Shown in pieces: positions 3,650-50,466 of a stretch of 64,000 bases of DNA. The notes beneath the pieces were generated by a model. That model worked only from the letters and a program-made list of their open reading frames with translations. It had not been told where the DNA came from and did no database searches. The position numbers and the translations under genes were made by a program. Where the stretch lies: contig JBHLNF010000006.1 of assembly GCA_048937405.1 (NCBI GenBank), positions 160,001 through 224,000 of the forward strand. Reading direction: 5' to 3'. The stretch's first letter is position 1, and each line of letters starts with the position of its first letter. Source of the DNA: Promethearchaeota archaeon (lineage in GTDB: Archaea > Asgardarchaeota > Lokiarchaeia > Sigyniarchaeales > SOKP01).

Positions 3650-4606
3650 TCATCTAATTCTTTTTTCTAATATTTGAAAAAAAGGTTCTATATCAATATT
3701 GCCACCACTTAATATTAAACCTATTTTTTTATTTTTAACCAGTACTTTTTTTGTTAGTACTGCTGCTAATGGAACTGCTCCAGATGGTTCTACAACCATT
3801 TTCATACGATTCCATAAGAATCTCATCGCTTCAACTATTTCCATTTCAGTTACTGTTATAATTTGATCTACATACTTTCTGATGAAATTAAAAGTTCTCT
3901 CACAAATTGAAGTACGTAATCCATCAGCAATAGTATTTGGATATGTACTTTGTATAATATACCCTGCTTTAAGAGATCTTAACGCGTCATCTGCTAGAGA
4001 GGGTTCAACACCTATCACATTAACGTCTGGAAGTAATCCTTTCGAGGCTATACCTGTACCGCTCAATAAACCACCCCCACCTAAAGGAGAAATAATTATA
4101 TCTAATTTACCAATTTCTTTAATAAGTTCATAAGCTACAGTTCCTGCTCCATTAATTATATTATCATTATCATAAGGATGAATTAAAATCAAATTTTTTT
4201 CTTCTATTAATTTCTTTGTAGTTTTAACTCTGGATCCCAGATTATTTTCACAAAATACTACTTTCGCCCCATATCCTTTGGTTGCATTTATTTTATTCTT
4301 TGGAGCTCCTCTTGGCATTACTATTGTTGAGTCTATTCCTAATATTGAAGCCGCGAGTGCTAAAGCTTGAGCATGGTTACCACTTGAATGAGTTATAACT
4401 CCCTGTTGCTTCTCTTTTTTTAAAAGCAAGCTCAATGAATTGAAGGCACCCCTAAATTTAAAAGCACCTACTCTTTGAAAATTCTCACATTTAAAAAAAA
4501 TTTCTGCGTTCATGAGAGAATTCAATGTTCTTGATTTCATTACTGGTGTCCGATTAACTATATTTCTTATTCTACTATAAGCTTCCTCTATGCCTTGAAA
4601 TGACAT
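3650..4606 (-). CDS. PLP-dependent serine/threonine dehydratase / serine racemase family protein
   Basis: KCENFQRVGAFKFRGA, SSGNHAQ, GGGGL, EPSGA and SGGN motifs; no ACT domain. Confidence 0.9.
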   Translation of the reverse strand: MSFQGIEEAYSRIRNIVNRTPVMKSRTLNSLMNAEIFFKCENFQRVGAFKFRGAFNSLSLLLKKEKQQGVITHSSGNHAQALALAASILGIDSTIVMPRGAPKNKINATKGYGAKVVFCENNLGSRVKTTKKLIEEKNLILIHPYDNDNIINGAGTVAYELIKEIGKLDIIISPLGGGGLLSGTGIASKGLLPDVNVIGVEPSLADDALRSLKAGYIIQSTYPNTIADGLRTSICERTFNFIRKYVDQIITVTEMEIVEAMRFLWNRMKMVVEPSGAVPLAAVLTKKVLVKNKKIGLILSGGNIDIEPFFQILEKRIR

Positions 4607-43429: not shown

Positions 43430-44926
43430 TTACTTCTTTTCCAATTTGATGGATTTACAATTTTTTCTCTTGATACCAGCAATCCTTTCTAATAAGGGTT
43501 GTCCTGGTTTAACATCCTTTAAACTTTTGGATTCTATTAATCCTGCTTTTATTGCTTCTTTATAGATTTTCTCACCTTTTTTATTTCTTGTAATCACTGT
43601 AGACCAGCCACTGGGGGACCCAATTGATCCTACAGAGATATCGGCATAATCAGCAGTCAAATCTTCGCAATAATGACAGTTGTGGCGTGTATAAGATTTA
43701 ACATCATTCAAGGGTACCTTTAAATCTTCACCTGAATCTAAGTAAATAATGAATTTACCACCACTTATGTCCATTTTTGTAACTTTTTTAAAATCTGTTT
43801 TAAATTGTTCGCTAATTAAGGTAAGGACACCTTCATAAGGAAAGGACTCCATACAAAAAAGCCCTATTCTATATTTTATATTTTTGAAAAAACTCTGTCC
43901 ACCTGGAAACCAAGTACCTTTTTCTAAGGCATTCATCATACATGGAACACCAACAACAGCAATATTTTCATAATTTTTTGTTTTATCTATGATTCTTAAT
44001 GTTGAGGCATTAGCATATTTAGTTCCACTTGTCTTATAGAGATCTTTAATATCATCTATAATTACTGGTTCTGGTTTCCATAAATCCTCTGAATGTTTTA
44101 CAGCTACAACCGCATCAACTAGTTTTTTTGTGAGTAGATATTCTGATAAAGAAGTTACTATCCCTCCATCTTGTCGTACACTTTTAATTTCATCTTTAGT
44201 GGTCGAAGCAGAATATGTATTGATATAACCATTTATTTTTTCTGAAAATTTTAAAGATTTATTAAGTTTATTTATAGTCTTGCCTGCTTGCTCAATTGAA
44301 AATGATCTTGGACAAACAGAATAACATAAACCGCATTTCATACAAGTTTCATCATCAATCTCTAAAATATCTGCTGTTACAGTAATTGCATTAACTGGAC
44401 AAATTGAGGAACACCAACCACATTGACAGCACACTTTAGAATCAAACACTATAGATACGGGCTCAAAAAAATGCTCAATGAAATCATTAGGTAAATCTTT
44501 AACTTGATATCTATAGAAATATTCTTTTTCCTCAACTTCTTTCTCTTCTCCCTTAACTTTTTTAATTATTGTTTTAGTTTGGATCTCAACAATTTCTTCA
44601 ATATAGCCTTGTTCTTTAAGGTAAAAAATATCGCGAATTATATTTTCAGGTGGAAAATCTTTTACTCTTTTAACAATTTCTTCTAAAAATAACGGTTCCT
44701 CACCTTTTAGTCTTTCATATAATAATTTGCGCTCTGTTTCAGCATCAATCATAGAATCTAATGTTTCATAAAATTGCTCTTCGGAATATTTTCCAGCTTT
44801 TAGAATTTCATCTTTTGCTTCAAAAAATGCTCTAATTTGAAAGTTCTCAACTGCTTTATAGGTAGCATCCATTAGATTTCTTGGTGATATTCCATTAAAA
44901 TTGTTGCTTTTTGAAATTTGAACCAT
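43430..44926 (-). CDS. FrhB/FdhB family protein with N-terminal winged-helix-like extension (start moved to ATG 44926)
   Basis: QDGG, VGVPC, IGLFCME, CHYCED and ADISVGS motifs. The TTG start at 45010 lies inside the SECIS-like hairpin, so the in-frame ATG at 44926 is preferred. Confidence 0.85.
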   Translation of the reverse strand: MVQISKSNNFNGISPRNLMDATYKAVENFQIRAFFEAKDEILKAGKYSEEQFYETLDSMIDAETERKLLYERLKGEEPLFLEEIVKRVKDFPPENIIRDIFYLKEQGYIEEIVEIQTKTIIKKVKGEEKEVEEKEYFYRYQVKDLPNDFIEHFFEPVSIVFDSKVCCQCGWCSSICPVNAITVTADILEIDDETCMKCGLCYSVCPRSFSIEQAGKTINKLNKSLKFSEKINGYINTYSASTTKDEIKSVRQDGGIVTSLSEYLLTKKLVDAVVAVKHSEDLWKPEPVIIDDIKDLYKTSGTKYANASTLRIIDKTKNYENIAVVGVPCMMNALEKGTWFPGGQSFFKNIKYRIGLFCMESFPYEGVLTLISEQFKTDFKKVTKMDISGGKFIIYLDSGEDLKVPLNDVKSYTRHNCHYCEDLTADYADISVGSIGSPSGWSTVITRNKKGEKIYKEAIKAGLIESKSLKDVKPGQPLLERIAGIKRKNCKSIKLEKK

Positions 44927-44987
44927 TTTTCTATCCTTTTGGATTAGATTTTCTAAAAATTTTACTTTTTGATTAAATACTATTTTA

Positions 44988-45058
44988 ATACCCCTTCCCT
45001 TGCAAGGCAAGTCCTCTTATAACTACAATTTTTTTATAAGAATCATTCTGCAGGGGTA
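44988..45058 (-). promoter_or_regulatory. Eukaryote-like SECIS element overlapping the mvhD stop codon
   Basis: Minus strand: UACCCCU-GCAG-AAUGAU-UCUUAUAA-AAAAAUUGUAG-UUAUAAGA-GGAC-UUGC...AGGGGUA. AUGA/GA core, 8-bp upper stem, A-rich apical loop; directly 3' of two genes with in-frame UGAs. Confidence 0.8.
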
Positions 45059-45504
45059 GTTATAACTTGTTTTGTTTCAATTTCTGGTAATTGATCCTGC
45101 AAATTAAGTAGATTTGGTCCGGCTTTTTCAACCTTCCTCAAAGCATCTTCTACACTTTTTACAAATTTCTCCGATTCTGCTGCACTTAACCAATACATAT
45201 TTATTCTTTGACTACCAAAACCTCTAGATTCTAAGATTCGGTTTGCTAAATCTACATGTTTTTGGGCTGTGAAATTTCCAATTTTGAACTGACACTCATT
45301 AGGACGTCATCCAACAACCATGACACCATCAGCTCCAGCACGAATACTATAGAGAATATGCTTAACATCGACCCTGCCAGTACATCTTACTTTAATGATT
45401 TTTACAGCTGGTGTATACTTCATTCGGGAGACGCCAGCTAAATCAGCTGCACTATAGCCTCACTTTAAACAAGCAAAAACAATTAAGTTATAATTATATA
45501 CCAT
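45043..45504 (-). CDS. mvhD: Selenocysteine-containing MvhD/VhuD (153 aa, Sec15 and Sec66); missed by ORF track
   Basis: MVYNYNLIVFACLK-U-GYSAADLAGVSRMKY...RCTGRVD...VVG-U-RPNECQF...WLSAAE. TGA at 45460-62 and 45307-09 align to Cys in the two Cys paralogues in this window. Confidence 0.92.
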
Positions 45505-45510
45505 ATTTGT

Positions 45511-47488
45511 TTAACCACCTCCTAAGATCCCATCAATTTCAGCAAATAATTGATGATCTCGATAATATCTGATATCAATAGCCTGTGTAGGACAACATGT
45601 AGCACAAATACCACATCCATCACAATTTATCTCATCAATAAAAGCACCAATATCCTTCTTGATTCTAATTGCACTTTTGGGACATTCTTTTTCACAACGT
45701 CGGCATGAAATACAAAATTCACTATCCACCTCAGCAGTAATTAGTTCCATATCAATTTTTCCTGGTACTGTTAGCTCGGCTACCTTACTCGCTGCTGCTC
45801 TGGCTTGAGAAACTGAATAAGCAATATTTTTAGGTCCTTGAGCAAAACCAGCTATAAAAATACCTTTTGATTTCGTTTCTTGGGGCATGAGTCCAAAATG
45901 TAATTCCGTAAGAAAACCATACATATTAGTATCCAGATTTAAAACGTTTACAATCTGTTGAGTACCTTTTGATGGAAGTGCCGCTGTAGATAATACGACT
46001 AAATCCGCATCAATTTTAACTATTTTATCTGTTAGAGTCGAGTATACACGAACATTCACGTTTTTTGTTTCAGGATCTTCAGAAATTTCACCTACTTTTC
46101 CCCGAATCATTCTAATACCAGCATCCTTAGCTCTTTCATAATACTCTTCAAATCCTTTCTCAGGAGTTCTTATATCAATATAGCAAATCGTAATCTTCGC
46201 GTCGGGAAATTCTTCAAGGAGTAATCGCCCATTTTTTAGTGCAAGCATACAACAAACACCACTGCAATAAGTCCGTTCTGTTTCTCGACTACCTACGCAT
46301 TGAATAAATACAATCTCTTTAGGTTTTTTATTATCAGAGATTCTGTGCACATGTCCTTCAAGTGGTCCATTTGGGGCTAATATACGTTCTAATTGGGCTT
46401 GCGTTATAACATTTTCAATTTCCCCATATCCATATTCACCAAATGGTTCATGAATATCCCACCCCGTTGCAATTATAATTGTCCCAACTTCAATCTTAAC
46501 TTCATTTGGTTCTTGGCTGAAATCAATAGCATCTAATTCACAGGCATCCACACATGAGAAACATTCTATGCAAGCATTTCTATCAATATCATACAAAAAT
46601 GGCACCGCTTGACCAAATGGTATATCAATTGCTTTTCGTGCGCCTAGATTTTCATCAAAATAATTTGTAGTATAAACAGGACATACTTCACTGCAGGCTC
46701 CACACCCATTACAATCTTCTGTTGTATAACGTGGTTTTTTCTCAACAATCACAGTATAATTACCTACGTAACCTTCAACTTTCTTTACTTCACTAAAACT
46801 TAATATTTCAATATTCTCATTGCGGTTGACTTCTAACATTTTAGGACCACAAATTCATATAGCACAATCATCTGTAGGAAATGTTCTATCCAATTGAGCC
46901 ATTCTTCCTCCAATCGTTGTTTTTTGTTCTACTAAATAAACTTTGATACCTTGATTTGCTAGATCAAGAGCTGCATTCATTCCACCAATCCCACCCCCTA
47001 CTACTAATGTCGCTTTAGTTACTGGGACAGTTTTAATAGGAACTGGTTCTAATCGTTTTGCTCTTTCAATACCACTTTTTACTAAGATTTTTGCTTTTTC
47101 TGTAGCTTCTTCTTTAGTATCCGTGCACCAATTTTGTGTCATTATGCTTTTGAGCATTAAAGACTCTACAATGTTCACGGACATTCACCATTTGAAAGTA
47201 ATAAGGATTTAAATCAGTTTTAGCAATTGTCCCTCTATAAATCACTTCATGCGTTCGTGGAGTTCAAGCTGAAGCTACAATTCTATTCAAATTCTTTTCC
47301 TTGATATCTTCGATAATTTCATTTTGAGCATTATCAGTTCAAAGAAATGAGTTTTTCTTTGATAATATAATTTCCTCTCCAAGATTCTTCACATACTCGG
47401 TTAATTCATCACAATCTACTTTTGTTCGAATATTTACACCTCATTGACAAGCATAGTATCCAATCCGATGATTTTCGTTATTACTCAT
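45511..47488 (-). CDS. hdrA: Selenocysteine-containing HdrA (647 aa after removal of 34-nt intron; Sec16, 50, 75, 200); join of 47488-47166 and 47131-45511
   Basis: ATG 47488; ACQ-U-GVNI (47441-43), SFL-U-TD (47339-41), ASA-U-TPRTHE (47264-66), NVREHC[S]W and DCAI-U-ICGPKM (46855-57). Each TGA aligns to a conserved Cys in the other HdrAs in this window. Confidence 0.9.
47132..47165 (-). other. 34-nt bulge-helix-bulge (tRNA-type) intron in hdrA
   Basis: UUGU/ACAA 4-bp helix flanked by 3-nt bulges AGA and AAU; removal gives TGT AG|T TGG (Cys-Ser-Trp) and restores the frame. Confidence 0.85.
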
Positions 47489-48012
47489 CTATTTTTACAC
47501 ATCCACCTCTAGCTTTTACATAATTGTATAATTATTAATTTCTTAGATTTTTATTGAATGATTTTTATTGTCCAATATTGATCTTATTGTAACGATCGAT
47601 ATTAAATATTTTTTTTAATAGTATTTACATTTTCAATACTTTTAATACTTACTGTTTATCGATATAAACAATTATTTGTAAAGCAATCACAACATCACAA
47701 CATTTTTGGCCAGATTGAAGATTTTTGACTAATTATTTTTGGAAACAGTCATATAAAGAGGAAATTATGATCGAAATAAATAATTTTATTATATAAATCT
47801 TTATATTGATAAAAAATTAGAAAAAAAGTATATCTCATCATAAAATATTTTTCAGTAATCTATCATAATCGGCTATTCTTATTAGTTTAATTAGGTTACT
47901 TCTAGCATTATGTTTAATTTGGGAAATGTTTTTATAATTAGTGATCTATTTTGATAATTAATCATATTTTTTAATAACTTTTTAAATAAAACCTAATTCA
48001 AAGACACAGTAA

Positions 48013-49608
48013 ATGTTGAAGACGAAGATTCATCCTCGTGAAATTTACAAGAAAAGTAAGGAATTTGGAATTGAAAACTCAGCGAAGATGCTAACTGAGA
48101 TAATAGACGAAGAGAAAGATAACACAAAGAGGAAAGATGCAATTAAATATTTGGGGTTGATAACAATTAATTCAGAGATATTAAAAGATGAATGCTTTGA
48201 AATATTTGAAAATTTGATAATTTCTGATGATACCATTGAAATTAAATGTGAAGCTGCTAAAGCTTTAGGTAGAATAAAGCATCAGAGAGCATTAAAACCC
48301 TTAAAATGGATATTAGAGAAAGAATCTGTAAATTACAAAGTGAAATTATCTGCTTTAAAGGCGATAAGAAAGACGAATTTCAATGATCCAGAAATAAAGT
48401 TATTTATTGATGAATTAGATAGTAAATATAATTCCATTAAAGAATATGTTTCTATTGAATTATTAAGTTTAGAACCTAAAAAGCTAATAAGTCTTTTATT
48501 AGAAGCGTTAAAAGAAAAAAGATACTCAAAGTCTCATAAAGCGGAATTAATAAGACTTATTGGATATGAACTCTCAAGGCTCATTGTTTCTTTTGAAAAC
48601 ATTAATTCTATTAAATCAAAATATTCAGAAATTTTATCTAATTTAATTTATAATAAGAATGAGTTATTAAATACCGCAGCACATATATTGAAAGAGGAAG
48701 ATTCAGCCTTAATGGATGCTATTATCACTATTTTTACTATATTAAAAAGTGAGACTGAAAATGACATTATAAAGCTATTATTAATTGATGATTTTATTGT
48801 TAGAAAAAATGCAAGTGTGTTATGCGGGAAATTAAAACTTAAAAATGCTGTAGATTTACTGATTTCTAATTTAGACAATATTTACAATGAGGTAAGTATA
48901 GCAGCCATTGAAGCTTTAGCGGAGATTGGAGACCTATCTGCTGTTCCTGAACTTTTAGACATTTTAGACATTGAGGATGTGAGTTTTGAATACACAGATT
49001 TAGACATGAAATTATATATTGTAGATGCTATAAAAAGAATTTATCAGTATAATCCTAATGTTTCTTATGATTTTTTAAATAATTCTTTAGAGAGAGATAA
49101 TAATGAAATTAAAGAAAGTGTAGCATTTATATTAGGCGAATTGGGTAAAGATGAGTTTGTAAAACCTTTAAGTAATTTACTCGATTTAAGAAATTTGGAA
49201 GTGAGAAAGAGTGCAATTATTGCTTTGGGAAAAATTGGCAGTATTGAACCATTAGAAGATTTAATAAGGATCCTAAAGGATAGCACTACTTATTGGCTTA
49301 TTAAGAAAGTCACGAGTGATGCAATCTATAATATATTTCAAAATAATTGGTATAGAGTTAAAGATACCAAACAAGATATATCAAGAATATTAAATAAAAA
49401 CCTGACAATTCTAGCGGATTATTTAAAAAGTCAAGAATCTGAGAATTATAAGATAAAACTTAGTTTAATCAAATTATTAGAAAATTTCGGAGGACAAAAC
49501 GTGCTAAATGCATTAATAAAAAGAGTAAATGATTTTCACAGAGTTGTGCGAATCTATGCTTCAAACGCCATTAAAAAAATTGAGGAAAGGCTAGAATTAG
49601 AAAATTAA
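48013..49608 (+). CDS. HEAT/PBS-lyase repeat protein
   Basis: Repeated 'V...AA.ALG.IG...A...L' units. Confidence 0.85.
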   Translation: MLKTKIHPREIYKKSKEFGIENSAKMLTEIIDEEKDNTKRKDAIKYLGLITINSEILKDECFEIFENLIISDDTIEIKCEAAKALGRIKHQRALKPLKWILEKESVNYKVKLSALKAIRKTNFNDPEIKLFIDELDSKYNSIKEYVSIELLSLEPKKLISLLLEALKEKRYSKSHKAELIRLIGYELSRLIVSFENINSIKSKYSEILSNLIYNKNELLNTAAHILKEEDSALMDAIITIFTILKSETENDIIKLLLIDDFIVRKNASVLCGKLKLKNAVDLLISNLDNIYNEVSIAAIEALAEIGDLSAVPELLDILDIEDVSFEYTDLDMKLYIVDAIKRIYQYNPNVSYDFLNNSLERDNNEIKESVAFILGELGKDEFVKPLSNLLDLRNLEVRKSAIIALGKIGSIEPLEDLIRILKDSTTYWLIKKVTSDAIYNIFQNNWYRVKDTKQDISRILNKNLTILADYLKSQESENYKIKLSLIKLLENFGGQNVLNALIKRVNDFHRVVRIYASNAIKKIEERLELEN

Positions 49609-49824
49609 AACCATTTTTAAAGCCTTTTCTCCCTTTTTTTTACTTAAATTTCAAAAGGAGTTTGATTTTATTCTTCATTAATTAATCCTCTAAATAAATA
49701 TAAAATTTCAGTATTTCATAAATATAAAACGTTTAAATAGAATTATTGATAAATTAACTTAATTTATCAAAAAGGTATAAAAGAAAGTTAAATATTTAAA
49801 AAATAATCCTAAGGTGATTAAACT

Positions 49825-50466
49825 ATAACAAAATTTAGTAAAAAAATATCTATTTTTTCTATAATTTTGATTTGCATAGTTTTATTTATTTATTTTTATC
49901 CATTAAATGCAGCAGGTGATTATCTAGTGCAGGTTGGAGATGAATGGACGTATGGGATAAAAAGAAGTGGTATTTATAAAGGCTCTGAAGGAATAAACAT
50001 AACTTCCATTTCCGATCCTTCAGATTACCCCCGTGGAACTTTCTATGAAAACGGTACAGCAGTATCTTTCAATCAAATAATAGATGAAGAGTATCTTTTA
50101 AATAAGACACTCTTAGAAGGGTTGGAAACAAATTTTACTACTAAAATGCGTAGTTATGCTGGTGTATCCTGCGAATGTATTTATATTCCCATAGAAGGAA
50201 TAGGATATATGTATGTAGATACTGCAACAGGTATAGTAGTGGAAACTTATGGTGTTTATCAACTTTTTTTCATTGAGGGAGAAATTAGAGTACATACTTG
50301 GGTTATCTCTTGGTCAGTTTCACAAATTCCAGAAAATCCTGAAGAACCTTCTACAGGTGGTGGTGGTAATGATATTCCCGGATATGATATTATACTCATT
50401 ATCGGAATAATAACTTTTATTTCAACTATATCGGTATTAGGATTTAAAAAAAGGATAAAAATTTAA
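49825..50466 (+). CDS. Secreted/surface protein with IPGY-TM-basic C-terminal sorting tail (probable ATA start at 49825)
   Basis: AAGGTGA SD-like at 49811-17; the frame from ATA gives a basic n-region plus hydrophobic signal; C-terminus IPGYDIILIIG...FKKRIKI. Confidence 0.7.
   Translation: MTKFSKKISIFSIILICIVLFIYFYPLNAAGDYLVQVGDEWTYGIKRSGIYKGSEGINITSISDPSDYPRGTFYENGTAVSFNQIIDEEYLLNKTLLEGLETNFTTKMRSYAGVSCECIYIPIEGIGYMYVDTATGIVVETYGVYQLFFIEGEIRVHTWVISWSVSQIPENPEEPSTGGGGNDIPGYDIILIIGIITFISTISVLGFKKRIKI

What the first reader, a model, noticed from the sequence alone, without database searches (positions are those of the whole stretch)
47132..47165. Bulge-helix-bulge (tRNA-type) intron interrupting a selenoprotein mRNA in an Asgard-like archaeon
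Seen (minus strand): ...CCGUG AACA-UUGU-AG^A-GUC UUUA AUGCU CAAA AGCAU AAU GAC-ACAA-AA^U-UG GUG CACGG... This is a 4-bp helix (UUGU/ACAA) between two 3-nt bulges (AGA, AAU), closed by stems on both sides. Established: the archaeal splicing endonuclease cuts BHB motifs after the 2nd nt of each bulge and RtcB ligates the exons; the precedent I know for protein-coding genes is mainly crenarchaeal cbf5. Applying that rule removes exactly 34 nt and gives CAU UGU AG|U UGG = H-C-S-W. This matches the QCSW motif of the three paralogues and joins the 3-Sec N-terminus in frame to the rest, giving 647 aa. Unspliced mRNA stops at UAA 47114-16 (124 aa). Inference: making this HdrA needs both endonuclease-mediated mRNA splicing and Sec recoding. 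It may be a regulated frame-restoring switch, conceptually like non-spliceosomal HAC1/XBP1 splicing. I am not aware of this being described for hdrA.
Basis: partly seen in the sequence, partly recalled or inferred. Interest (0 to 1): 0.96.

Follow-up and report, generated by a model that had tools for sequence, protein, structure and literature searches.

The report
tRNA-type intron splits Asgard selenoprotein hdrA
A 34-base insert that breaks a selenium-containing energy-metabolism gene (hdrA) of a probable Asgard archaeon has the RNA shape that the tRNA-splicing enzymes cut. Comparison with relatives shows that the shape has been kept by selection, so the messenger RNA is very probably spliced, which papers report for only one other archaeal protein gene (cbf5).

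Summary
Minus-strand hdrA (ATG 47488, stop 45511-13, four in-frame TGA) is interrupted by 34 nt at 47132-47165. The insert is real DNA: contigs from two separate studies bridge it without a difference.

The insert folds as a bulge-helix-bulge (BHB). Cutting after the second nucleotide of each bulge gives ...TGTAG|TTGG... (HCSW), the sequence of intron-less orthologues, and a 647-aa HdrA.

Comparative evidence is strong:
- A related intron sits at the same site in one other genus member and in two metagenome contigs. It shows compensatory changes in two helices, and a complete exon-exon outer helix is found only in carriers.
- Carriers differ by dS about 1 with dN/dS about 0.05, the same as intron-less genes.
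- The same gene has two further BHB intron sites in other species.
- A BHB-blind comparison with a complete relative found only BHB-bounded inserts, in a ferredoxin-domain gene, elp3 and uL11.
- The genome encodes alpha- and beta-type EndA and RtcB.

Spliced RNA was not observed, because no RNA run was listed. The idea of a regulated switch has no support. This scan has noted similar mRNA introns before, in this genome and in others. In the papers I could search, only cbf5 is documented.

The parts
47166..47488 (-). hdrA exon 1: 107 codons plus AG of the Ser-108 codon. Sec (TGA) codons lie at 47443-47441, 47341-47339 and 47266-47264.
   Evidence: It matches HdrA profile NF041778 positions 3-103.
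47132..47165 (-). 34-nt BHB intron. It comprises the last nt of the 5' bulge, inner helix GUC/GAC, hairpin AUGCU-CAAA-AGCAU, the 3' strand of the central helix (ACAA) and the first two nt of the 3' bulge.
   Evidence: It is single copy in the genome.
45511..47131 (-). hdrA exon 2: third base of Ser-108 through the stop at 45513-45511. The fourth Sec codon is at 46857-46855.
   Evidence: It matches the HdrA profile from position 105 on. Orthologues are 82-93% identical.
47168..47171 (-). 5' strand of the central 4-bp helix (UUGU, exon). It pairs with 47134-47137 (ACAA, intron).
   Evidence: The fourth pair is U-A here and C-G in three other carriers.
47176..47180 (-). Exon-1 strand of the outer helix (CCGUG). 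It pairs with CACGG at 47121-47125 in exon 2.
   Evidence: The helix is complete in 4/4 intron carriers and 0/19 intron-less orthologues.
47121..47130 (-). Exon-2 strand of the outer helices: UG (47130-47129) pairs with CA (47173-47172), then a 3-nt loop, then CACGG.
45043..45504 (-). Downstream vhuD/mvhD-type gene with two in-frame TGA, 6 nt after hdrA.
   Evidence: The tandem arrangement is described for Lokiarchaeota in PMC4989117.
45012..45046 (-). SECIS-like hairpin just after vhuD: AUGA, a stem of about 10 bp, an 11-nt A-rich loop, then GA.
   Evidence: Fold. The shape fits the lokiSECIS description in PMC4989117. It was not modelled further.

Best explanation
The 34 nt are an archaeal bulge-helix-bulge intron inside the hdrA-vhuD selenoprotein messenger.

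Proposed mechanism:
- In the primary transcript, exon and intron bases form the 4-bp helix flanked by two 3-nt bulges.
- The heteromeric (alpha-beta)2 splicing endonuclease cuts after the second bulge nucleotide on each strand.
- RtcB joins the exons, creating the Ser codon AG|U, and probably circularises the intron.
- Only the spliced RNA encodes the 647-aa, four-Sec HdrA.

What is shown: the structure, the exact restoration of the orthologous junction, selection on the structure and on the interrupted gene, and the presence of the enzymes.

What is inferred: the cutting and joining in the cell, and that removal is constitutive.

The intron is old. It is shared by non-sister lineages at dS about 1 and has been lost, or never acquired, in most relatives. 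It belongs to a population of roughly 28-39-nt mRNA mini-introns in this genus.
For: (1) Boundaries. 18 same-genus orthologues read ...CATTG(T/C)(TC/AG)|(T/A/G)TGGTG... without an insert. Rule-based excision reproduces L020 letter for letter. The spliced gene is 647 aa with TGA at codons 16, 50, 75 and 200, as in 15 of the 18 orthologues; the other three keep TGA at the matching positions apart from one missing or one extra TGA. The exons abut on the HdrA profile at positions 103 and 105.

(2) Real DNA. Contigs from two studies span the insert with no difference.

(3) Same-site introns. G041 (35 nt) and metagenome contigs L216 (34 nt) and L285 (35 nt) carry one. On alignment A1, 95.6% of cells pair, against 22-46% when the partners are slid. 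Both-side changes occur in central-helix pair 4 (U-A versus C-G; the exon side is a synonymous Cys change) and in inner-helix pair 3.

(4) Outer helix. The 5-bp exon-exon helix is complete in 4/4 carriers and 0/19 non-carriers (Fisher 1.1e-4, not corrected for phylogeny).

(5) Selection on the gene. dS among carriers is 1.0-1.2 with dN/dS 0.047-0.057, equal to intron-less pairs (median 0.047).

(6) Other intron sites in hdrA. A 39-nt intron with an in-frame stop sits 19 nt upstream in G020 and G067. It has 8 differences: 7 in the 14-nt loop, 1 in a bulge and 0 in the helices (binomial 5e-5 or less). For that pair dS is 0.66 and dN/dS 0.05. A 30-nt BHB intron sits at the first Sec codon in G041.

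(7) BHB-blind comparison. Split-HSP comparison with 2.8 Mb of complete relative G006 gave four clean short frame-breaking inserts: this one, a ferredoxin-domain gene, elp3, and uL11 of G006. All have the 4-bp helix and 3-nt bulges, and the rule gives exact restoration. pfk shows the same.

(8) Enzymes. A catalytic-type and a structural-type EndA subunit and RtcB are encoded. The (alpha-beta)2 type with broad specificity is reported for Asgard archaea (PMC5829648).
Against: - No spliced RNA, circular intron or junction peptide has been seen.
- The helix next to the 3' bulge on the exon side is only 2 bp before an internal loop, so the motif is slightly relaxed.
- The genome has many HdrA paralogues, so this copy is not demonstrably essential.
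- The carriers are not a clade in the gene tree, so the history (repeated precise loss or lateral spread) is unresolved.
- The covariation rests on four sequences, and in 31 of 500 shuffles the score reached the observed value.
Confidence: 0.85

Rival explanations
1. The insert is a recent inactivating insertion: this hdrA copy is a young pseudogene and the BHB-like fold is a coincidence.
For: The genome holds many HdrA paralogues that could cover a loss. No RNA evidence for splicing exists.
Against: - The strict motif occurs at about 2.8e-4 per position and length, yet it coincides exactly with the boundaries defined by homology.
- Three other lineages carry a related intron at the same site, with compensatory changes and intact 4-Sec frames.
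- dN/dS is about 0.05 over dS about 1, and there is no second lesion in 1941 nt.
Confidence: 0.05
2. The insert is handled by the ribosome rather than by splicing. Either the ribosome bypasses it (a gene-60-like hop), or a +1 frameshift inside the insert gives HdrA with 11 extra residues.
For: The 34 nt contain no stop in the incoming frame, so a single +1 shift inside them would restore the frame. The insert contains a hairpin.
Against: - There are no matched take-off and landing codons. The conserved Ser-108 codon exists only as AG|U across the splice.
- Length varies (34 or 35 nt), so a single frameshift rule does not fit all carriers.
- What is conserved is helices, including an exon-intron helix, and fixed 3-nt bulges, with free loops. 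This is the pattern expected of an endonuclease substrate.
- The sister 39-nt intron carries in-frame stops.
- Eleven extra residues would fall inside the conserved CSW motif.
Confidence: 0.03
3. The intron is spliced, but conditionally. It acts as a frame-restoring switch that gates Sec-HdrA synthesis, as HAC1/XBP1 splicing gates a transcription factor.
For: Unspliced RNA would give only a 124-aa fragment. Three intron sites cluster in the first 108 codons of this one gene.
Against: - Most orthologues do without any intron: 37 of about 41 in the surveyed 300 nt.
- Similar introns sit in housekeeping genes with no shared regulation.
- No sensor-linked endonuclease is evident. This was not searched for specifically.
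Confidence: 0.07
4. The insert is an assembly or binning artefact.
For: The genome is a 29-contig assembly with 5.7% estimated contamination.
Against: Independent contigs from two studies reproduce the insert and its flanks with 0 differences. Intron-less forms in the same samples belong to diverged relatives. The contig is 263,818 nt long.
Confidence: 0.01

Closest known systems
BHB intron of the cbf5 (pseudouridine synthase) pre-mRNA in Crenarchaeota (Watanabe 2002; Yoshinari 2006; Yokobori 2009, PMC2738675)
   Same: - A short tRNA-type intron inside a protein-coding sequence.
- Predicted cutting by a hetero-oligomeric EndA and rejoining of the exons.
- Patchy presence among relatives, with gain and loss.
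   Different: - The host lineage is a probable Lokiarchaeia-type Asgard archaeon.
- The host gene is a four-Sec hdrA in an operon with a distal shared SECIS.
- One gene has three separate intron sites.
- The intron belongs to a set of mini-introns in several genes of the genome.
- Splicing here has not been shown experimentally, whereas cbf5 splicing was.
Archaeal pre-tRNA and pre-rRNA BHB introns, including the heavily interrupted tRNA genes of Asgard archaea (bioRxiv 10.64898/2026.10.13.758758)
   Same: The motif geometry, cut positions and size range are the same. ARAGORN calls introns in 15 of the 21 tRNA genes it can find in this genome.
   Different: The exon half of the motif is made of codons rather than a tRNA stem. 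Synonymous sites therefore carry the structural constraint.
Multi-Sec HdrA-VhuD pairs with one shared lokiSECIS in Lokiarchaeota (Mariotti 2016, PMC4989117)
   Same: - Four Sec at conserved Cys positions.
- vhuD with two Sec lies 6 nt downstream.
- A single SECIS-like hairpin follows vhuD.
   Different: That paper reports an intron only in tRNA-Sec, and the 2024 Asgard selenoproteome survey (PMC11227280) does not use the word intron at all. Neither reports one in hdrA.
HAC1/XBP1 unconventional mRNA splicing (Ire1 plus tRNA ligase or RtcB)
   Same: Non-spliceosomal, endonuclease-plus-ligase removal of a short intron that changes the reading frame.
   Different: A different endonuclease and a different recognition motif are involved, and that splicing is stress-regulated by design. 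Nothing here indicates regulation.

Membership tests
Archaeal BHB (tRNA-type) intron | [quoted passage not shown] | tested here: met
   UUGU/ACAA with bulges AGA and AAU. The same geometry is seen in three other carriers.
Archaeal BHB (tRNA-type) intron | Flanking helices: h (exon-exon) and h' (intron). | tested here: met
   h' is GUC/GAC plus a 5-bp hairpin. h is CA/UG, then a 2x3 loop, then 5-8 bp. This is slightly relaxed next to the 3' bulge.
Archaeal BHB (tRNA-type) intron | Cuts after the second bulge nucleotide give a functional mature RNA. | tested here: met
   The junction is identical to intron-less orthologue L020. The product is 647 aa, and the exons abut on the HdrA profile at positions 103 and 105.
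Archaeal BHB (tRNA-type) intron | The structure is kept by selection among related copies. | tested here: met
   Two compensatory pairs and 95.6% of cells paired. The outer helix is complete only in carriers. In the sister 39-nt intron, changes are confined to the loop.
Archaeal BHB (tRNA-type) intron | The host encodes the splicing endonuclease and the RtcB ligase. | tested here: met
   Two EndA genes score above the TIGR00324 cut-off. One aligns to the catalytic half and one to the structural half of fused EndA. RtcB is found at 565 bits.
Archaeal BHB (tRNA-type) intron | The intron is absent from the mature RNA (spliced junction or circular intron observed). | not testable with these tools
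   No RNA run holding this stretch was listed.
Lokiarchaeal multi-Sec HdrA | HdrA profile match, Sec at conserved Cys positions, vhuD downstream, one SECIS after vhuD. | tested here: met
   The whole-protein scores of the separate exons are below the equivalog cut-offs because the gene was scored in two pieces.
Programmed translational bypass (T4 gene 60 type) | Matched take-off and landing codons flank the gap, with a stop right after take-off. | tested here: not met
   Reading the sequence shows no matching codon pair and no stop at the 5' edge.
HAC1/XBP1-type regulated splicing | A sensor-coupled endonuclease and condition-dependent splicing. | not tested
   No expression data are available. 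Similar introns in housekeeping genes argue against a dedicated switch.

The most novel reading that the evidence does not exclude
This Asgard genus may carry a turning-over population of tRNA-type mini-introns in messenger RNAs, concentrated near the 5' ends of genes. On this reading, hdrA is a hot spot (three sites in its first 108 codons) because Sec decoding through a SECIS about 2.4 kb downstream already forces translation to wait for the finished transcript, which gives the splicing enzymes time to act. That would be a prokaryotic case in which uncoupling translation from transcription makes interrupted protein genes tolerable.
Probability: 0.2. Interest if true: 0.92.

Novelty: new member of a known kind. 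Interest (0 to 1): 0.8.

Why it matters
Protein-gene introns removed by the tRNA-splicing enzymes are documented in papers for a single archaeal coding gene, cbf5. Here the same mechanism is strongly indicated in the closest prokaryotic relatives of eukaryotes, in a gene that also needs four stop-codon recodings.

There is evidence of long persistence, compensatory evolution, several intron sites in one gene, and companion introns in elp3, pfk, a ferredoxin-domain gene and uL11.

Practical consequence: gene callers miss or truncate such genes, so Asgard metabolic and selenoproteome inventories are biased.

Conceptual consequences:
- How ribosomes are kept off unspliced messengers in a cell without a nucleus becomes a testable question.
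- How such introns arise complete with a strand complementary to their host exon also becomes open to test.

Tried and rejected
- RNA evidence: no RNA holder was listed for window 44000-50000, so expression and splicing could not be examined.
- Rfam at gathering threshold gave no family in the window. ARAGORN found no tRNA in the window.
- Genome-wide strict BHB scan plus 'excision restores a long open frame' was not discriminating. The true geometry gave as many hits as cut sites shifted by one base (3881 against 3668-3982), because operon gene junctions mimic the signal. I therefore switched to a BHB-blind comparison with relative G006.
Introns shared by both genomes, or with exons under about 25 aa, are invisible to that comparison, so counts are lower bounds.
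- Other split-HSP candidates (G000 C17, C19 near 124.7 kb, C7 near 679.5 kb; G006 near 1.82 and 2.63 Mb) were low-scoring or gene-boundary differences. They were not pursued.
118 of its 120 loci were unrelated.
- The minimum-free-energy fold draws the outer and inner helices but not the 4-bp central helix. That bears on the energy model, not on the motif.
- The four G000 introns share no sequence and are single copy, so a repeated mobile element is rejected.
- The carriers do not form a clade, so 'one recent gain' is rejected.

Full report
**What is there**

On the minus strand an hdrA gene starts at ATG 47488 and ends at the stop 45513-45511. It contains in-frame TGA at codons 16, 50, 75 and 200. 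Between 47165 and 47132 lie 34 nt that shift the frame, and unspliced the frame ends at TAA 47116-47114 after 124 aa.

The RNA around the insert reads as follows:
- outer stem CCGUG, then AA;
- CA, then UUGU;
- bulge AG|A;
- GUC, an internal loop, and a 5-bp hairpin with loop CAAA;
- GAC, then ACAA;
- bulge AA|U;
- UG, GUG, then CACGG.

This is the archaeal bulge-helix-bulge topology: on each strand the 4-bp helix is followed 3' by a 3-nt bulge. The 75-nt region folds more stably than shuffles (z -3.25).

**Is it real DNA?**

Assembled contigs of two public sediment or metagenome runs from different studies span the insert and its flanks without a single difference. They are run X1 (379 nt) and run X4 (275 nt). 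The same samples also hold diverged relatives without the insert; these appear as a joint 47131->47168 with two other letters between.

**Does excision restore the gene?**

A search of 40 relatives found 18 same-genus orthologues (82-93% identical over exon 2). All 18 lack the 34-nt insert at this place. They read ...CATTG(T/C)(TC/AG)|(T/A/G)TGGTG..., and L020 is identical to the predicted spliced junction.

The spliced gene is 647 aa with TGA at codons 16, 50, 75 and 200, as in 15 of the 18 orthologues. The other three keep TGA at the matching positions, except for one missing TGA (L019, L020) or one extra (L015). On NCBIfam HdrA profiles exon 1 ends at position 103 and exon 2 starts at 105. 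The missing position is the Ser codon made by the splice. Three paralogues in the window carry RDQCSWVH.

**More than chance?**

The strict motif occurs at about 2.8e-4 per position and length in this 29% G+C genome. Here it falls exactly on boundaries fixed independently by homology.

A genome-wide 'BHB plus restored frame' scan was not informative, because shifted decoys scored the same. I therefore used homology instead.

**Related introns at the same site**

A genus-wide DNA search covered 54 genomes, about 41 of them with a near-full-length match. Only four matches are longer than the 300-nt query: G000 (+34), G041 (+35), G020 (+39) and G067 (+39).

G041 carries a 35-nt intron at exactly the HCS|W site. 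A metagenome pattern scan added two more carriers, L216 (34 nt) and L285 (35 nt). The four introns share their ends and differ inside.

On alignment A1, 95.6% of cells pair, against 22-46% when the partners are slid. Two pairs change on both sides:
- The fourth pair of the central helix is U-A in G000 and C-G in the three others. The exon side of that change is a synonymous Cys codon change.
- The third pair of the inner helix is C-G in G000 and U-A in the others.

The 5-bp exon-exon outer helix is complete in all four carriers and in none of 19 genes without an intron at this site (Fisher 1.1e-4; relatedness not corrected). In carriers, then, synonymous sites of the exons serve the RNA structure.

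**Selection on the interrupted gene**

Pairwise dS among the four carriers is 1.0-1.2 with dN/dS 0.047-0.057. Intron-less pairs give the same value (median 0.047). The introns are about as diverged as neutral sites, so they are old, and the genes that carry them stayed under strong constraint throughout. A gene broken by a frameshifting insert could not behave like this unless the insert is removed.

The carriers are not a clade. L216 is sister to intron-less L003 with bootstrap 100. Either the intron was lost precisely many times, or it spread by recombination. I cannot tell which.

**Two further intron sites in the same gene**

- G020 and G067 carry a 39-nt insert 19 nt upstream, at MVN|V, with in-frame stops. 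It has central helix UGGU/GCCA, 3-nt bulges and a 9-bp inner helix. Their 8 differences fall 7 in the 14-nt loop, 1 in a bulge and 0 in the helices (binomial 5e-5 or less). For this pair dS is 0.66 and dN/dS 0.05.
- G041 also has a 30-nt BHB intron directly before the first Sec codon, with helix UGCC/GGCA and a 7-bp inner helix. Its excision restores ...CQ|U G....

**A wider phenomenon**

I compared G000 in both directions with 2.8 Mb of the complete same-genus genome G006 by split tblastn hits, without using any structure criterion. The clean short frame-breaking inserts were:
- this hdrA intron;
- 29 nt in a 4Fe-4S dicluster-domain gene (G000 C7:426890-426918);
- 31 nt in elp3 (C25:116201-116231);
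- 28 nt in uL11 of G006.

Each has a 4-bp helix with 3-nt bulges, and the rule gives exact restoration. pfk (C25:149016-149046, 31 nt, inside GGG|DCPGLN) shows the same core. The introns share no sequence and are single copy.

ARAGORN finds only 21 tRNA genes in the genome and calls introns in 15 of them. This fits the heavily interrupted Asgard tRNA genes described in a 2026 preprint.

**Machinery**

Two EndA genes and one RtcB gene are present. One EndA (197 aa) aligns to the catalytic half of fused EndA and keeps Tyr, His and Lys. The other (200 aa) aligns to the structural half and lacks the His. That is the (alpha-beta)2 architecture reported for Asgard archaea and linked to broad substrate range (PMC5829648). 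It is the same enzyme type that was connected to cbf5 mRNA splicing.

**Context**

vhuD with two Sec follows after 6 nt, and a SECIS-like hairpin follows it. Lokiarchaeota were described with this arrangement (PMC4989117). That the organism is a Lokiarchaeia-type Asgard archaeon is an inference from these features; I ran no taxonomy test.

**Rivals**

- A young pseudogene is contradicted by the four-lineage persistence and by the dN/dS values.
- Ribosomal bypass or frameshift is contradicted on four counts: there are no matched take-off and landing codons; the intron length varies; conservation falls on helices rather than on sequence; and the conserved Ser codon exists only across the splice.
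- An artefact is excluded.
- A regulated switch cannot be excluded but has nothing in its favour.

**Literature and earlier notes**

In the searchable library, pre-mRNA BHB splicing is cited only for cbf5, plus a Haloferax 5' UTR case in PMC7714728, which I did not read. The 2016 Lokiarchaeota paper reports an intron only in tRNA-Sec, and the 2024 Asgard selenoproteome survey does not contain the word intron; neither reports one in hdrA.

This scan has already noted BHB mRNA introns in this genome and in others, including a 39-nt hdrA intron elsewhere. I re-derived the elp3, pfk and ferredoxin-domain cases and the 39-nt case from sequence.

**Verdict**

This is a genuine BHB intron in a selenoprotein messenger. 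Structure, homology and evolution support it strongly. RNA evidence is lacking.

Noticed in passing
L176 (G041:C36), about 1960-1989 on the minus strand: The hdrA of another species has a second, 30-nt BHB intron placed immediately before the first Sec (UGA) codon. It is in frame and has no stop, so gene callers would read it as a 10-residue insertion.
   Followed up: partly
L007:967-1005 (G020) and L175 (G067:C4): A 39-nt BHB intron with in-frame stops sits 19 nt upstream of the site studied here. It is shared by two species whose closest gene-tree neighbours lack it. All but one of the differences between the two copies lie in the loop.
   Followed up: yes
G000 C7:426890-426918 (-), C25:116201-116231 (+), C25:149016-149046 (+); G006 near 1129381-1129408 (L091): There are further 28-31-nt BHB-bounded inserts in a 4Fe-4S dicluster-domain gene, elp3, pfk and (in the relative) ribosomal protein uL11. 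The elp3 intron has no outer helix and the pfk intron has only a 2-bp inner helix, so relaxed motifs appear to be tolerated.
   Followed up: partly
hdrA codons 16, 102 and 108 of 647; pfk codon 13; uL11 codon 36 of 166; ferredoxin-domain gene codon 39 of 267; elp3 codon 217 of 605: The mRNA introns seen here lie mostly near the 5' ends of their genes. All three hdrA sites fall in the first sixth of the gene. This is a post-hoc observation on few cases and was not tested.
   Followed up: no
every intron examined, e.g. window 47134-47137 with 47168-47171: Each intron carries a 4-nt strand complementary to the exon bases just upstream of its own insertion point. How an inserted sequence arrives already matched to its host exon is unexplained. 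The possibilities are selection among many insertions, local inverted duplication, or later co-adaptation such as the synonymous exon changes seen here.
   Followed up: no
window 45012-45046 (-): A SECIS-like hairpin (AUGA, a stem of about 10 bp, an 11-nt A-rich loop, then GA) overlaps the vhuD stop codon. It would have to serve six UGA codons up to about 2.4 kb upstream, as described for Lokiarchaeota.
   Followed up: partly
whole genome G000: ARAGORN recovers only 21 tRNA genes in a 4.47-Mb genome rated 100% complete, and 15 of them are called with introns. Most tRNA genes are probably too interrupted for standard finders.
   Followed up: no
L177 (G067:C251): The same genome bin holds a second, more diverged, intron-less copy of this hdrA type. 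In it the CSW Cys is replaced (…EHISW…). It could be a paralogue or contamination.
   Followed up: no
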